From: a phage
Strand: one strand, 5' to 3'
Sequence record: PX880101.1
Length of the DNA: 64,000 bases
Shown: positions 44,582-54,259 of the stretch, piece by piece
Layout of the letters: the number at the start of each line of letters is the position of its first letter
Numbering within the stretch: position 1 is the stretch's first letter
The notes under the pieces: model-generated
The model's input: only the letters and a program-made list of their open reading frames with translations
The model's database searches: none
What the model was told of the DNA's origin: nothing
Translations under genes and position numbers: made by a program

Positions 44582-44892
44582 TACTTGAAAATTCCTGGCA
44601 TATCAAGTGTAAGGGGGATTTCTAAAATGGATTTCCTCCTTTTGATATTTCACCGGGCTGGATATTTTAAAATTCTTAGAAAATCAGAAAATGGATCGAA
44701 AACTAAAATGGATTTTTCAGAGTAGGCGCGACAAGCTGAATAACTCATCCTATCGTTTGCACCATATTCCAGGCCACCATTATAGATTTCCCACACATGC
44801 TAACCTCCCTCTACTAGAACTTCCTCCACTTGCCCTTAACCTTCTATGGTAACAATCTAACCACTATCTTGAAGTTGCGGTGCAGCTTTCCA

Positions 44893-45025
44893 AGTACTCG
44901 ATCTACTTTTCATTTCATGGCTTGGATTTTCTGAAAATTTTTCTCGATAAATTTCTCAGTACTCGATCTGTTTTTCGTTTTCTGAATCGGATTTTCTGGA
45001 AATCGTTCCGGATCTCGACCTGAAA
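44893..45025. repeat. imperfect tandem direct repeat, two 65-bp units
   Basis: agtactcgatct…ggattttctg…ttctc occurs at 44893 and 44958 in the same order and spacing. Confidence 0.6.
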
Positions 45026-45130
45026 TTTTTGGGGACGAAATCGATTTTTCGTTTTCAGAAATGGATTTTTAAAATTTCTATATGGGAATATTTTATGGGA
45101 TACTGTTTTATAGGAAATTGTTACGGAGGG

Positions 45131-46531: not shown

Positions 46532-46560
46532 TTGACACGCTGCAAAATTAAAGTAAACTA
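46532..46560 (+). promoter_or_regulatory. sigma70-like early promoter
   Basis: TTGACA-17 nt-TAAACT, followed by leader hairpin ggcggg-aatgttt-cccgcc. Confidence 0.5.
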
Positions 46561-46608
46561 GACACAAAAGGCGGGAATGTTTCCCGCCAACACAAAGGAA
46601 AAAAGATC

Positions 46609-47004
46609 ATGAATAAGAACGTACGCCGCATCATGAACGAACTGGCAAACGATGAAAAAATTATTGATATGCATTTGGTAAACATTTGCCGCCGTTGTGT
46701 AACATATAACAACCGCGCCGCAAAAGCGCGTGAGATGAACGCAAAAGGCACCTTAAAGCCCTTTCAGGTGGTTGTAAAATCTATAACCAGTGCAGCAGAC
46801 CAGGCGCATGACCACAACAACGGGAGCACTAATATTGATCCGTCTTACGTAATGAAACGGATCCGGACTTGCAAGAATAAAGAGCAGGTGTATAACGTCA
46901 TAGATTGGTTGGACTCCCTGGGCGATGTGGTTTATAATAGGTTTTCTGCAGCTATCGAGATCCAGCTTGACAGACTGGACGGGAAAGTACTGAAAACTTA
47001 CTAA
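46609..47004 (+). CDS. hypothetical protein
   Basis: 131-aa ORF, RBS aaggaaaa. Confidence 0.55.
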   Translation: MNKNVRRIMNELANDEKIIDMHLVNICRRCVTYNNRAAKAREMNAKGTLKPFQVVVKSITSAADQAHDHNNGSTNIDPSYVMKRIRTCKNKEQVYNVIDWLDSLGDVVYNRFSAAIEIQLDRLDGKVLKTY

Positions 47005-47052
47005 GTTTATTTTTAGATGGCCTTGACGCCAGGGCCATCAATAAAGTAAACT
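47005..47052 (+). repeat. promoter-stem-loop cassette (PeSL-like), copy A
   Basis: ttatttttagatggccTTGACgccagggccatcaataaagTAAACT: 7-bp stem gatggcc/ggccatc with the -35 hexamer in the loop, -10 18 nt downstream. Confidence 0.6.
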
Positions 47053-47083: not shown

Positions 47084-47203
47084 ATGAGCACTACACGCCA
47101 GCACACAAAGGTAACTATTATCGTTTGCATCATTGGTTATATCCTGGCGCAAATGTTGATGGGTAGCGCCAACGGTGTCGCAAAATTTTTCTTAAACTTT
47201 TAA
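47084..47203 (+). CDS. small membrane peptide (39 aa)
   Basis: Not in ORF track; strong RBS aaaggagg; hydrophobic core IIVCIIGYILAQMLMG. Confidence 0.4.
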   Translation: MSTTRQHTKVTIIVCIIGYILAQMLMGSANGVAKFFLNF

Positions 47204-47231
47204 TTGACAAGCTAACTTAGATCGGTATACT
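47204..47231 (+). promoter_or_regulatory. sigma70-like early promoter
   Basis: TTGACA-16 nt-TATACT, then leader hairpin gggaaaacttccc. Confidence 0.55.
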
Positions 47232-47281
47232 AAACACATCAACGGGAAAACTTCCCAGAACACACAAAAGGAGAAAACACC

Positions 47282-47623
47282 ATGACCACTATGACCGCCG
47301 CAGAAAAAGCTATTCAGATCGCTGCCCTGAAAAAACAGATCGCAGACCTTGAGAATAAGATCGATAACTTTGAAATCGACGAGGACAAGTACGACGAAAA
47401 CTATGATGAATGGTTAGACGAGATCTACGGCGAAATTATGATCGGAAACATTTCTTTTCTTCCGTCGCGTATCCTCAAGGAGCTAGATCCTATCGCTTAC
47501 CGCTGCGGATTTAGCGACTACATCGACAGCCTGGATATTGAGGACGATGAAGAATACCAGGAATTACAGACAGAGTTGGAAGAAGCAAAAGAAGAGCTTG
47601 CGGAGCTGGAAGAAAACGAGTAA
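47282..47623 (+). CDS. highly acidic protein; candidate DNA-mimic/anti-restriction factor
   Basis: 113 aa with very high Asp/Glu content (…DIEDDEEYQELQTELEEAKEELAELEENE); RBS aaaggag. Confidence 0.5.
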   Translation: MTTMTAAEKAIQIAALKKQIADLENKIDNFEIDEDKYDENYDEWLDEIYGEIMIGNISFLPSRILKELDPIAYRCGFSDYIDSLDIEDDEEYQELQTELEEAKEELAELEENE

Positions 47624-47671
47624 GATTATTTTTAGATGGCCTTGACTCCAGGGCCATCAATAAAGTAAACT
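47624..47671 (+). repeat. promoter-stem-loop cassette (PeSL-like), copy B
   Basis: gattatttttagatggccTTGACTccagggccatcaataaagTAAACT; one mismatch to copy A. Confidence 0.6.
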
Positions 47672-48815: not shown

Positions 48816-49076
48816 ATGCGTAAATTAAAAAATTTTGATAAAGTTGATGTTGTCCTGAATAATTTTTACTACTGCAACAACAAGGCCATTTGGTGGCGTG
48901 ATAGTTCCACCGATAAAGTCAAGGCGCGCTTTCTCCAGGGGCACTGGCAAGGCCGCCCAGTGATTAAAATCATGGGGCAATTGGTAGCGTTTAAAAATTG
49001 CCGCCGTGTTGATGACGTTGAGGAGATTTTAAACATTTTGCGCCACAATAATTTAAAAAATAGTGTTGACAAGTAA
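48816..49076 (+). CDS. hypothetical protein
   Basis: 86-aa ORF, RBS aaaggag. Confidence 0.5.
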   Translation: MRKLKNFDKVDVVLNNFYYCNNKAIWWRDSSTDKVKARFLQGHWQGRPVIKIMGQLVAFKNCRRVDDVEEILNILRHNNLKNSVDK

Positions 49077-49093
49077 ATCTCAATAAGTATAAT
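49066..49093 (+). promoter_or_regulatory. sigma70-like early promoter
   Basis: TTGACA-16 nt-TATAAT overlapping the stop of the upstream gene; leader hairpin ggcgggaaaacttaccgcc. Confidence 0.55.
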
Positions 49094-49150
49094 TAAACAC
49101 ACAGGCGGGAAAACTTACCGCCACTAACAAAGAAAACAGGAGAAAATATC

Positions 49151-49774
49151 ATGACCACCGTTAACATTACCACAGGTTACAATTTATCTTTCGACGTGCT
49201 GACCGACGAACAAAAAGAAAAAGCCATTGAAATGGTACGCGAAAGAGAAGAACACAGCGGGGATGACTTTTTTGCAGAAAGTGTAATTGAACACTACAAA
49301 GAATATATCTTTCCAGAGTACGGCCTTGAAGATACCGAAGTACATTGGTCCGGCTTTTGGTGCCAGGGTGACGGCGCGTCAATCAGTGCTGAAAACGTGG
49401 ATTTAGAAAAATTTTTGCGTAAAGTAAAGGCCCTGACCAAGTTCCGATCAATTCGTCACTTGTTCGGCACAATGCACGATGGCGAGTTATCAGCCAGTGT
49501 TGAACGCGACAAGTACAGCCATTACAGCCATGAAAACACTGTAAGCGGATACATTGATACCACCTGGCTAGATCTGACCGCCAAACAAGAAAACAAAGTG
49601 GAAGACCTGGAAGAGCTGATCACCGAGACGGTACGGGAGCTATCCCGCAAGGTTTACGTAGACCTGGAGGAGGCCTATCTAGAACAGTTCACTACCGAAA
49701 ACCTGATCGGCCTTATTGAGGCCAATGATTGGCGGTTTGATGTGGATGAATATGGAGAGATGAGTTTTTCATAA
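49151..49774 (+). CDS. acidic hypothetical protein
   Basis: 207-aa ORF, RBS caggaga; net acidic. Confidence 0.55.
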   Translation: MTTVNITTGYNLSFDVLTDEQKEKAIEMVREREEHSGDDFFAESVIEHYKEYIFPEYGLEDTEVHWSGFWCQGDGASISAENVDLEKFLRKVKALTKFRSIRHLFGTMHDGELSASVERDKYSHYSHENTVSGYIDTTWLDLTAKQENKVEDLEELITETVRELSRKVYVDLEEAYLEQFTTENLIGLIEANDWRFDVDEYGEMSFS

Positions 49775-49782
49775 ATAAAGTG

Positions 49783-49810
49783 TTGCAATAATCTAAAAAC
49801 CTGCTATATT
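49783..49810 (+). promoter_or_regulatory. sigma70-like early promoter
   Basis: TTGCAA-16 nt-TATATT, then leader hairpin ggggcaagacgtttgcccc. Confidence 0.45.
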
Positions 49811-49865
49811 AAAACTCAAGGGGGGGCAAGACGTTTGCCCCACACAAAACAAAGAGGAAAACATT

Positions 49866-50246
49866 ATGAAAAACACTACTAAAGCTATTGACACCGTTAT
49901 GTTTAACCTGGTTACCTTTCGCGAGGATATGAAAGATCTTCCACGTGAAACAGTGTGCGATCACATTGAAAACTATCGCAAACTAATCAAAGAGTTGCCT
50001 TTAAAACGTGACCAGTATGCGGCTAACGCTATGCTCAACGCCATGATCAAAAAGATGATTCAGTGTGATTTAACCCTGGCCTATGATTATGCAGGTGGTC
50101 GTTTTGCAGTATACAATCAGCCCGTGCCTGGTATGAGCACCACCGAAGAATTGCACGCGTTAAATCTGAAACAAGATGTATGGGATAACATGCCCCGCGT
50201 GGTGGTGTGGGCAGAAAGCGGAAAGATTTACGGCGATAATTTTTAA
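49866..50246 (+). CDS. hypothetical protein
   Basis: 126-aa ORF, RBS agaggaaaa. Confidence 0.55.
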   Translation: MKNTTKAIDTVMFNLVTFREDMKDLPRETVCDHIENYRKLIKELPLKRDQYAANAMLNAMIKKMIQCDLTLAYDYAGGRFAVYNQPVPGMSTTEELHALNLKQDVWDNMPRVVVWAESGKIYGDNF

Positions 50247-53972: not shown

Positions 53973-54257
53973 ATGAAAAAGATGATCGCAGTGGTTACCC
54001 TGGTTGTTGGACTTAATGCGCCTGTAATGGCTAAAGAGCTGGCAAAAGAGGTTAATCTAACGGATATTCATGCCGTCAATCAAATCGGGGTTACTTATCG
54101 CTTATGCCTTGCCGCTAAAACTTTTAAGGACGGCACAACAGAGTACTACGGATTCGAGGGTATCCGGTGCGGTGAGCTTGCTCGCGACCTTAAGGAAGAT
54201 CCAGACCTGGAGGAACTGCCCATAACCGTGAACGGGAAAACTTACGTGAACCGTTAA
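53973..54257 (+). CDS. secreted/periplasmic small protein
   Basis: 94 aa; signal-peptide-like N-terminus MKKMIAVVTLVVGLNAPVMA; RBS aagagga. Confidence 0.5.
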   Translation: MKKMIAVVTLVVGLNAPVMAKELAKEVNLTDIHAVNQIGVTYRLCLAAKTFKDGTTEYYGFEGIRCGELARDLKEDPDLEELPITVNGKTYVNR

Positions 54258-54259
54258 CC

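What the first reader, a model, noticed from the sequence alone, without database searches (positions are those of the whole stretch)
47282..47623. Highly acidic small early protein: candidate DNA mimic
Seen in sequence: the 113-aa product has very high Asp/Glu content with long acidic runs (DEDKYDENYDEWLDEIYGE…DIEDDEEYQELQTELEEAKEELAELEENE). It sits directly behind an early promoter and is bracketed by two PeSL-like cassettes. Established knowledge: phage DNA-mimic proteins such as Ocr and ArdA are small, strongly acidic, early-expressed inhibitors of restriction-modification and other DNA-binding defences. Inference: this is a candidate of that type.
Basis: inference. Interest (0 to 1): 0.5.

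Follow-up and report, generated by a model that had tools for sequence, protein, structure and literature searches.

The report
Acidic early phage protein, function unknown
This is a real, conserved, very acidic small protein of an rV5-like E. coli phage that founds a huge uncharacterised phage family and has the size, charge and likely early timing of a DNA-mimic defence inhibitor, but nothing yet shows what it binds.

Summary
ORF 47282-47623(+) encodes 113 aa with 31% Asp+Glu, net charge -26 and pI 4.05. These values almost equal those of T7 Ocr (117 aa, net -28, pI 4.05). It is the most acidic ORF in the window.

The window is a Vequintavirus (rV5-like) genome, and the gene is rV5 ORF192 / Bas59 gene 0104, annotated as hypothetical. 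It follows a near-consensus sigma-70 promoter and a conserved leader hairpin. Two copies of a 51-nt hairpin cassette bracket it.

The protein is under purifying selection (dN/dS about 0.12). It is predicted to fold confidently (pLDDT 89) as an N- and a C-terminal amphipathic helix flanking a small conserved core, YDxxLDExYG…SRxLKELDPIAYRCGFSDY. About 3,850 50%-identity clusters share this core, all acidic and phage-borne. None is in Pfam, NCBIfam or the PDB.

It is not homologous to Ocr, ArdA or gp5.9, and its fold matches no known mimic. Homologues sit in early regions: PAK_P3 gp086 by RNA-seq, and Proteus phage PM16 gp02.

Published plating data show that Vequintaviruses escape type I restriction only. 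However, phi92-like relatives that lack the gene escape it too.

Verdict: a plausible but unproven polyanionic decoy from a new family. The target is unknown.

The parts
47002..47052 (+). Upstream copy of the 51-nt intergenic hairpin cassette. A 10-bp GC stem with a tetraloop sits inside an AU-rich outer stem. It also contains TTGACG-18-TAAACT.
   Evidence: Repeat family D1. Exact 36-nt core at 47016-47051. RNA fold -25 kcal/mol, z = -6.6. Weak promoter match 47023-47052, 9/12.
47084..47203 (+). 39-aa hydrophobic small ORF (MSTTRQHTKVTIIVCIIGYILAQMLMGSANGVAKFFLNF) with an AAGGAGG ribosome-binding site. It equals rV5 ORF193 and bas59_0103.
   Evidence: Conserved in three phages.
47204..47231 (+). 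Sigma-70-type promoter, TTGACA-16-TATACT.
   Evidence: 11/12 match. Annotated as 'Sigma70-type promoter P192' in rV5. Conserved in Bas59 and rV5.
47231..47273 (+). Transcript leader. It holds a short conserved hairpin (GGGAAAACTTCCC, 47244-47256) and the Shine-Dalgarno sequence AAGGAG (47268-47273).
   Evidence: Repeat family D2, with copies after other promoters at 46559, 49094 and 54221. Sequence read. Conserved.
47282..47623 (+). Coding sequence of the 113-aa acidic protein (rV5 ORF192 orthologue; PHROG 9294).
47297..47365 (+). N-terminal amphipathic helix (residues 6-28). Heptad a/d positions are I/L/A, with mixed Lys/Glu on the surface.
   Evidence: AF2 secondary structure. Heptad register. 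Family column statistics.
47393..47533 (+). Conserved core mini-domain (residues 38-84): helix, beta-hairpin and two helices. The motif is YDxWLDExYG…SRxLKELDPIAYRCGFSDY. D69, Y73, C75 and D79 are invariant in alignment A2.
   Evidence: Alignments A1/A2. Profile statistics. Matches phrog_9396 and phrog_37123 over residues 38-101. A 64-aa core-only homologue folds on its own.
47549..47614 (+). C-terminal polyanionic amphipathic helix (residues 90-111). Leu occupies the a/d positions. The other positions are about 60-77% Asp/Glu and at most 15% Lys/Arg across the family.
47621..47671 (+). Downstream copy of the hairpin cassette, 96% identical to the upstream copy. It overlaps the stop codon.

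Best explanation
**What it is.** An early-expressed host-takeover or anti-defence effector of an rV5-like phage.

**Expression (inferred).** Host RNA polymerase transcribes the gene from its own sigma-70 promoter soon after DNA entry.

**Proposed mechanism (inferred).**
- The polyanionic rod occupies the basic nucleic-acid-binding surface of a host protein and so acts as a competitive decoy.
- The conserved core gives specificity or mediates oligomerisation.

**Target.** Not identified. Type I restriction-modification is only one option. Others are BREX, RecBCD, an SMC complex, or a nucleoid or RNA-polymerase-associated protein.

**Shown versus inferred.**
- Shown here: the gene, the charge, family-wide conservation of acidity, the predicted fold, and the genomic setting.
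- Inferred: the timing in this phage, decoy action, and any target.
For: - **Charge and size.** They equal the archetypal mimic: 113 aa, net -26, pI 4.05, against Ocr at 117 aa, -28, 4.05.
- **Acidity is selected, not incidental.** Among 183 diverse members the median D+E is 0.30 and the median net charge is -28; 180 have net charge of -10 or lower and none is 0 or above. Solvent-facing positions of the C-helix are about 60-77% D/E and at most 15% K/R. Even 64-71-aa minimal members carry -11 to -12.
- **Confident fold, not disorder**.
- **Purifying selection.** dN/dS is 0.11-0.15.
- **Early setting.**
  - A consensus sigma-70 promoter is present.
  - The PAK_P3 homologue gp086 (profile E = 1e-13) lies inside the early-transcribed block gp74-gp112.
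  - PM16 gp02 (E = 2e-15) is the second gene from the left end of an Autographiviridae genome.
  - Other members always sit in co-oriented arrays of small unknown ORFs.
- **Phage-restricted, with no catalytic signature.** No Pfam, NCBIfam or PADLOC match was found, and no member was found in 72,556 plasmid records apart from one mislabelled phage genome.
- **Type I escape in relatives.** Vequintaviruses carrying the orthologue plate at EOP 0.06-0.8 on EcoKI and 0.5-1 on EcoCFT_I despite 9-15 EcoKI sites. A phage with 3 sites is restricted about 10^4-fold. The window shows no EcoKI site avoidance: 10 sites against 7.3 expected.
Against: - No homology to Ocr, ArdA or gp5.9.
- No structural neighbour among known mimics.
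- The most conserved residues (LKELDPIAYRCGFSDY, including an invariant Cys and Tyr) are not acidic. That fits a specific protein-protein interface or a structural role better than generic charge mimicry.
- Phi92-like phage Bas60 has no family member in 150 kb, yet escapes EcoKI equally: EOP 0.13-0.72 with 12 sites. The type I phenotype therefore cannot be assigned to this gene.
- The BASEL authors conclude that these phages lack effective protection against RM.
- At least four other strongly acidic unknown proteins occur in the same window, including a 207-aa protein with net -26 lying 1.5 kb downstream.
- Coordinates of the model were not available, so the charge geometry was not measured.
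Confidence: 0.4

Rival explanations
1. It is specifically an Ocr/ArdA-type inhibitor of type I restriction-modification enzymes. A dimer of the acidic rod would fill the DNA groove of the HsdM2S core. This is a sub-case of the best explanation.
For: - Size, charge and pI are like Ocr.
- The promoter type suggests early expression.
- Vequintaviruses with the orthologue escape EcoKI and EcoCFT_I but are hit hard by EcoRI, EcoRV and EcoCFT_II, and variably by EcoP1. That is the selectivity expected of a type I inhibitor.
- There is no EcoKI site avoidance.
Against: - Bas60-62 (phi92-like) show the same type I escape. Bas60, the one genome searched, has no family member.
- The BASEL authors ascribe weak type I restriction to the low number of sites.
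- The family occurs in phages of very diverse hosts, and its conserved core is unrelated to Ocr or ArdA.
- No member is found on plasmids, where type I inhibitors are common.
Confidence: 0.1
2. It is a specific protein-protein effector that is not a nucleic-acid mimic. The conserved core would dock onto a conserved host or phage protein, for example RNA polymerase, a sigma factor, a replication factor or a protease. The two helices would serve only as a dimerisation or solubility module whose acidity is secondary.
For: - The strongest conservation is in the non-acidic core motif, which has invariant D69, Y73, C75 and D79.
- The core exists alone as 64-71-aa proteins lacking the long helices (P0054-56, PM16 gp02).
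- The core also occurs in tandem duplicates inside larger proteins.
- The core is predicted to fold autonomously.
Against: - Even the core-only versions are strongly acidic, at net -11 to -12 in 64-71 aa.
- The near-absence of Lys/Arg from exposed C-helix positions across hundreds of clusters is unusual for a plain coiled-coil dimeriser, which normally uses Glu/Lys salt bridges.
- No partner gene is conserved next to it.
Confidence: 0.3
3. It has a phage-internal housekeeping role. It could be an acidic chaperone or assembly factor for a basic phage protein, with a prefoldin-like or histone-chaperone-like architecture, rather than acting on the host.
For: - Two long helices flank a beta-hairpin-containing central module, an arrangement that superficially resembles prefoldin subunits.
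  - Weak phmmer hit to prefoldin beta, E = 2.8.
  - A few homologues carry precomputed Prefoldin Pfam hits.
- The gene is nearly universal in Vequintavirus: 113 of 121 matching records carry the region.
Against: - The prefoldin-type matches are weak and typical of coiled-coil noise.
- The gene lies among small accessory ORFs with host-type promoters, not in morphogenesis or replication modules.
- The family is patchily distributed and is absent from the related phi92-like Bas60.
- No basic partner gene is conserved nearby.
Confidence: 0.12
4. It is an incidental low-complexity ORF with no specific function.
For: The Glu/Leu-rich C-terminus is compositionally simple. All database 'names' for homologues are coiled-coil artefacts such as SbcC, GvpG and CwlO.
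Against: - dN/dS is 0.11-0.15.
- 3,854 50%-identity clusters reach E of 1e-3 or better, and 1,604 reach 1e-10 or better.
- The core motif is nearly invariant.
- The predicted fold is confident.
Confidence: 0.02

Closest known systems
T7 Ocr (gp0.3), DNA-mimic inhibitor of type I R-M and BREX and a trigger of PARIS
   Same: - Length, acidic content, net charge and pI are almost identical: 113 vs 117 aa, 35 vs 34 D+E, -26 vs -28, pI 4.05 for both.
- Both are all-or-mostly helical with an acidic C-terminal tail.
- Both have a host-type promoter and an early-region setting. A homologue is the second gene of a T7-like podophage.
   Different: - No detectable homology: no Pfam ocr hit, and hhalign probability 0.4%.
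- The predicted architecture differs: two helices flanking a small helix/beta-hairpin core rather than Ocr's helical bundle dimer.
- It has a strongly conserved non-acidic motif.
- No functional data exist.
T7 gp5.9, an acidic coiled-coil DNA mimic that blocks RecBCD (and MukBEF)
   Same: A small early phage protein whose functional surface is an acidic amphipathic helix or coiled coil. The C-helix (EEYQELQTELEEAKEELAELEENE) has the same style as the gp5.9 helix.
   Different: - hhalign probability is 1.4%.
- gp5.9 is 52 aa with net -8 and has no globular core.
- That gp5.9 forms a parallel dimer comes from established knowledge and was not tested here. The oligomeric state of this protein is unknown.
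ArdA / KlcA (ArdB) anti-restriction proteins of plasmids and transposons
   Same: Small, acidic and expressed first on entry. They are candidate inhibitors of DNA-targeting defences.
   Different: - No Pfam match to ArdA or Antirestrict.
- The family is phage-restricted and absent from 72,556 plasmid records, apart from one mislabelled phage genome.
[quoted passage not shown]
   Same: Small, strongly acidic phage proteins of unknown primary function. They share no fold with Ocr but are sensed by an anti-anti-restriction system (PMC11464382).
   Different: - Relationship not established. No family member was detected in the first 50 kb of T5, and the rest of T5 was not searched.
- PARIS sensitivity of this protein is untested.
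PeSL (promoter-early stem-loop) cassettes of T4-type phages
   Same: Short repeated intergenic modules that combine sigma-70 promoter hexamers with a stable stem-loop and flank small accessory ORFs.
   Different: - The phage lineage and the sequence differ.
- Here the -35-like TTGAC lies inside the hairpin and the hexamer match is weak (9/12).
- The strong promoter of this gene is a separate element with its own leader hairpin.
- No evidence of cassette-mediated shuffling was seen, because the region is collinear in 113 of 121 related genomes.
- The comparison with T4 PeSLs rests on recalled literature and was not tested.

Membership tests
Ocr (Pfam PF08684, T7 gp0.3-like) | Sequence or profile similarity to Ocr | tested here: not met
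   No Pfam hit at E of 1 or less. hhalign of the family profile against T7 Ocr gives probability 0.4%.
Ocr (Pfam PF08684, T7 gp0.3-like) | Small size with extreme negative charge (pI about 4) | tested here: met
   113 aa, net -26, pI 4.05, against Ocr at 117 aa, -28, 4.05.
Ocr (Pfam PF08684, T7 gp0.3-like) | Inhibits type I R-M (EcoKI/EcoBI) in vivo or in vitro | not testable with these tools
   Only indirect data exist. Orthologue-carrying Bas56-59 escape EcoKI and EcoCFT_I, but so do Bas60-62, and Bas60, the one genome searched, lacks the family.
ArdA (PF07275) / ArdB-KlcA (PF06067) | Profile match to the family | tested here: not met
   No such families among the Pfam hits at E of 1 or less. 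NCBIfam gave none.
T7 gp5.9-like RecBCD inhibitors | Sequence or profile similarity | tested here: not met
   hhalign probability 1.4%, with 5 aligned columns.
DNA-mimic proteins (functional class) | Stable fold presenting a rigid array of surface carboxylates | tested here: inconclusive
   The fold is confident (pLDDT 88.9 and 84.8), and exposed helix positions are about 60-77% D/E family-wide.
DNA-mimic proteins (functional class) | Structural similarity to any solved mimic (Ocr, ArdA, Gam, Arn, gp5.9, Ugi, Acr mimics) | tested here: not met
DNA-mimic proteins (functional class) | Binds the DNA-binding site of a target protein competitively | not testable with these tools
   Needs complex prediction or biochemistry.
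PHROG 9294 / wider 'LKELDPIAYRCGFSDY' family (uncharacterised) | Full-length profile match and the core motif | tested here: met
   phrog_9294 E = 1.3e-53, and phrog_9396 and phrog_37123 match over the core. 3,854 representative clusters reach E of 1e-3 or better. Motif columns are invariant or nearly so.
Early phage genes | Transcribed by unmodified host RNA polymerase early in infection | tested here: inconclusive
   A consensus sigma-70 promoter is present. The homologue PAK_P3 gp086 lies in the RNA-seq early block gp74-gp112. No transcriptome for a Vequintavirus was found.
PeSL-like cassettes | Repeated intergenic unit combining promoter hexamers with a stable stem-loop and flanking small ORFs | tested here: met
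   Four copies, against 0.03 expected by chance. Fold z = -5.4 to -7.2. TTGAC(G/T)-18-TAAACT lies within the cassette.
PeSL-like cassettes | Evidence that the cassettes mediate modular gene shuffling | tested here: not met
   The 3-kb region is collinear in 113 of 121 related genomes. Cassette positions are identical in Bas59.

The most novel reading that the evidence does not exclude
The protein is the first recognisable member of a very large family of phage-encoded polyanionic decoys with a previously unseen small fold. The family has at least 3,800 clusters at 50% identity. Carriers include phages of Enterobacteria, Pseudomonas, Vibrio, Acinetobacter and Actinobacteria, and marine viral contigs; one member is fused to a cyanophage (Kyanoviridae Gp96) domain. 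The conserved LKELDPIAYRCGFSDY core would target a universally conserved host nucleic-acid-handling machine or immune sensor. That would make it one of the most widespread anti-defence or host-takeover modules not yet described.
Probability: 0.3. Interest if true: 0.75.

Novelty: new variant of a known kind. Interest (0 to 1): 0.45.

Why it matters
- **Tools and phage design.** Small acidic early proteins such as Ocr, ArdA and gp5.9 have been productive tools and have revealed how phages disable restriction, BREX, RecBCD and SMC complexes, and how backup systems such as PARIS sense them.
- **An unannotated family.** This family is much larger than its annotation suggests. It is absent from Pfam, NCBIfam and the PDB, and is 'hypothetical' in every genome examined. 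It also occurs in therapeutic-candidate phages, namely rV5-like coliphages and PAK_P3-like Pseudomonas phages.
- **An unremarked phenotype.** Published BASEL data contain a pattern the authors did not discuss. Vequintaviruses and their phi92-like relatives escape type I restriction despite many sites, while being strongly restricted by type II and III systems. Finding the responsible gene, this one or another, is a tractable experiment.

Tried and rejected
- **Known-family searches.** Pfam, NCBIfam and PADLOC scans of the protein gave only sub-threshold coiled-coil noise such as GvpG, HalX, LmuB and SbcC. Database 'names' of homologues (SbcCD ATPase, GvpG, CwlO, Zn-ribbon) were rejected as coiled-coil artefacts.
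- **Solved structures.** phmmer and profile searches against PDB sequences found nothing below E = 0.37.
  - The DSL tripeptide lies at the end of the last helix, not at a helix N-terminus as in ACP.
  - The Ser is only about 50% conserved.
- **Direct comparison with known mimics.** hhalign against T7 Ocr and gp5.9 was negative.
- **Fusion partners.** Pfam scans of ten longer family members gave only Kyano_Gp96, which is itself of unknown function.
- **Gene neighbourhoods.** Six diverse members showed no conserved partner and no known anti-defence neighbour.
- **T5 Ptr1/Ptr2 link.** No family member lies in T5 positions 1-50,000. The rest of T5 was not fetched.
- **Presence/absence versus phenotype.** Bas60 lacks the family but shows the same EcoKI escape, so the correlation test does not support assigning the phenotype to this gene.
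- **Literature.** Searches for the PHROG ids, the locus tag, Vequintavirus transcriptomes and accessory-gene screens found nothing on this protein.
- **Rfam.** The region gave only one sub-threshold chance match.
- **Hairpin cassettes as terminators.** I rejected the intrinsic-terminator reading because on both strands the T-rich tract precedes the stem and the A-rich tract follows it.

Full report
**1. What the window is.** A 3-kb stretch around the finding is 99.9% identical to Escherichia phage A6-1 and 95-99% identical to many rV5-like phages (Vequintavirus), including BASEL phage Bas59 EduardKellenberger. The gene is annotated there as a hypothetical protein: bas59_0104 and rV5 ORF192/gp187.

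**2. The observation.**
- The ORF at 47282-47623(+) exists as described.
- It encodes 113 aa, of which 35 are Asp/Glu (31%) and 9 are Lys/Arg. Net charge is -26 and pI is 4.05. It is the most acidic by fraction of the 168 ATG-started ORFs of at least 60 aa in the window.
- These figures are nearly those of T7 Ocr taken from the T7 record: 117 aa, 34 D+E, net -28, pI 4.05.
- Pairwise dN/dS among the window, Bas59 and rV5 orthologues is 0.11-0.15, so it is a real gene under purifying selection.

**3. Regulatory anatomy.**
- *Promoter.* TTGACA-16-TATACT lies at 47204-47231, an 11/12 match. The rV5 authors annotated it independently as sigma-70 promoter P192 (Kropinski et al., PMC3606486).
- *Leader.* It carries a short hairpin (47244-47256) belonging to a repeat family that also follows other promoters at 46559, 49094 and 54221. 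AAGGAG follows, 8 nt before the ATG.
- *Cassettes.*
  - The 'PeSL-like cassettes' are real. A 51-nt unit occurs at 47002, 47621, 47956 and 51359.
  - Each folds into a 10-bp GC stem with a tetraloop nested in an AU-rich outer stem: -22 to -28 kcal/mol, z = -5.4 to -7.2.
  - They contain a weak promoter-like TTGAC(G/T)-18-TAAACT.
  - On both strands the T-rich arm precedes the stem, so they are not canonical intrinsic terminators.
- *Layout.* The upstream cassette is separated from the gene by a 39-aa hydrophobic ORF (47084-47203). The whole arrangement is conserved in Bas59 and rV5.
- *Shuffling.* I saw no sign that the cassettes shuffle genes here, since the region is collinear in 113 of 121 related genomes.

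**4. The protein family.**
- No Pfam, NCBIfam or PADLOC family matches. PHROG 9294, of unknown function, matches full length.
- A word-indexed search found 71 relatives. A profile search of 1.84 billion 50%-identity representatives found 3,854 at E of 1e-3 or better and 1,604 at 1e-10 or better. A profile search of the 90% database found 1,909 at 1e-5 or better.
- None carries a meaningful name.
- All share a core, YDxxLDExYGxVxIxGxxFxxSRxLKELDPIAYRCGFSDY. D69, Y73, C75 and D79 are invariant in alignment A2, and S62, L65, E67, P70, I71, A72, G76 and Y80 are at least 90% conserved.
- Members come in several forms:
  - core-only proteins of 64-71 aa;
  - the common form of about 105-135 aa with terminal helices;
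  - tandem double cores inside 200-560-aa proteins;
  - a fusion to the cyanophage Gp96 domain.
- Carriers include Vequintaviruses and phages of Vibrio, Klebsiella, Serratia, Acinetobacter, Providencia/Proteus, Pseudomonas (PAK_P3 group), Microbacterium, Clavibacter and Gordonia, plus marine viral contigs.
- The only plasmid hit is a mislabelled Vequintavirus genome.

**5. Structure.**
- AlphaFold2 with the family alignment gives pLDDT 88.9 and pTM 0.65. The elements are helices 6-28 and 34-49, a beta-hairpin at 52-59, and helices 61-68, 70-83 and 90-111.
- A 64-aa core-only member gives the same helix, hairpin and two-helix unit on its own, with pLDDT 84.8 and pTM 0.67.
- Both terminal helices have a/d heptads.
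- Across 183 members the C-helix has Leu at a/d. Its other positions are about 60-77% Asp/Glu and at most 15% Lys/Arg. The N-helix is mixed.
- BFVD returns only uncharacterised relatives. PDB sequence and profile searches are empty.
- hhalign against T7 Ocr and gp5.9 is negative, at 0.4% and 1.4%.
- The protein is therefore not a member of any known mimic family, and the core may be a new small fold.

**6. Is the acidity functional?** It is conserved as a property. The median D+E is 30% and the median net charge is -28. Of 183 members, 180 have net charge of -10 or lower and none is 0 or above. Minimal members are also acidic: PM16 gp02 has -12 in 71 aa and the TARA 64-mer has -11. The profile used to collect members is itself acidic, which biases this somewhat. 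However, membership is driven by the non-acidic core motif.

**7. Timing and context.**
- PAK_P3 gp086 is a family member (profile E = 1e-13). It lies in the block gp74-gp112 that RNA-seq defined as early (PMC4933390).
- Proteus phage PM16 gp02 (E = 2e-15) is the second gene from the left end of an Autographiviridae genome.
- Other members sit in long co-oriented arrays of small unknown ORFs with no conserved neighbour.
- I found no Vequintavirus transcriptome.

**8. Phenotypic evidence from the literature.**
- The BASEL paper states that Vequintavirinae are 'exceptionally susceptible' to RM systems and seem to lack effective protection (PMC8594841).
- Its raw data are more nuanced.
  - Bas56-59 carry 9-15 EcoKI and 4-6 EcoCFT_I sites. 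Bas59 has a 96% identical orthologue.
  - They plate at EOP 0.06-0.83 on EcoKI and 0.2-1 on EcoCFT_I.
  - On EcoRI the EOP is about 1e-4, and there are no plaques on EcoRV or EcoCFT_II.
  - Bas01, with only 3 EcoKI sites, is restricted about 10^4-fold.
- The window has 10 EcoKI sites against 7.3 expected, so sites are not avoided.
- This selectivity is what a type I inhibitor would produce. However, the phi92-like phages Bas60-62 behave the same way. I found no family member in 150,000 of the 150,425 bases of Bas60, which carries 12 EcoKI sites. The phenotype therefore cannot be pinned on this gene.
- Other strongly acidic unknown proteins are present in the same window, notably a 207-aa protein with net -26 at 49151-49774 behind a perfect sigma-70 promoter.

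**9. Conclusion.**
The protein has the size, charge, predicted rigidity, family-wide conservation of acidity and probable early timing expected of a polyanionic decoy.
- It belongs to no known mimic family, and its most conserved feature is a non-acidic motif. No target can be named.
- I put about 0.4 on a nucleic-acid-mimicking decoy of some host DNA- or RNA-binding protein. Within that, type I R-M specifically gets about 0.1.
- I put about 0.3 on a specific non-mimic protein-protein effector, about 0.12 on a phage-internal chaperone-like role, and about 0.02 on no function.
- The wider finding is that this is a very large, unannotated phage protein family worth experimental screening.

Noticed in passing
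window 49151-49774 (+), promoter 49066-49093: A second strongly acidic protein (207 aa, net -26) lies 1.5 kb downstream, behind a perfect 12/12 sigma-70 promoter. It has no Pfam match, falls in PHROG 5162 (unknown function) and belongs to a narrow, mostly Vequintavirus-type family. It is an equally valid candidate for any charge-based anti-defence role.
   Followed up: partly
window 47084-47203 (+): A conserved 39-aa hydrophobic, probably membrane, micro-ORF with a strong ribosome-binding site sits between the upstream hairpin cassette and the acidic gene's promoter. It is annotated in rV5 (ORF193) and Bas59.
   Followed up: partly
window 46559-46596, 47231-47268, 49094-49131, 54221-54258: A second repeat family: a short GC hairpin placed immediately after the -10 box, in the 5' leader of several small genes. 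It may be a transcript-stabilising or regulatory leader shared by this promoter class.
   Followed up: no
window 47002, 47621, 47956, 51359 (51-nt units): The hairpin cassettes have the T-rich arm 5' and the A-rich arm 3' of the stem on both strands. They therefore do not look like intrinsic terminators in either direction. Their role (RNA processing or stability, weak promoter, recombination site) is unexplained.
   Followed up: partly
window 44884-45069: Three direct repeats of 65-74 nt lie in an ORF-poor stretch upstream of the small-gene array. This may be the 'non-coding' box noted in the rV5 paper. Its function is unknown.
   Followed up: no
public records MG065658, MG065661, MG065682 and others; CP057073.1: Seventeen records labelled 'Campylobacter phage' match this E. 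coli Vequintavirus region (those listed are 98.7% identical). A 137.5-kb 'E. coli plasmid' is a Vequintavirus genome. These are probably mislabelled or contaminant records.
   Followed up: no
BASEL S1 Data (PMC8594841), phages Bas56-62: Vequintaviruses and phi92-like phages escape the two type I RM systems (EOP about 0.1-1) despite 9-15 EcoKI sites. They are restricted 10^4-fold or completely by EcoRI, EcoRV and, variably, the type III systems. The paper attributes weak type I restriction to the small number of sites, yet Bas01 with 3 sites is restricted 10^4-fold. The responsible factor is unidentified.
   Followed up: partly
proteins P0117, P0128, P0146, P0154, P0099, P0103 (metagenomic): These large proteins contain two tandem copies of the core motif. 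The copies are separated by repeated AETF(G/E)A-like linker motifs, and several proteins end in a C-terminal transmembrane helix. They look like polyprotein-like or modular assemblies of small phage domains.
   Followed up: no
window 49796-49868 (+): A weak Rfam match to Clostridium-PBP RNA (33.6 bits against a gathering score of 94.4, E = 0.16). It is most likely chance.
   Followed up: no
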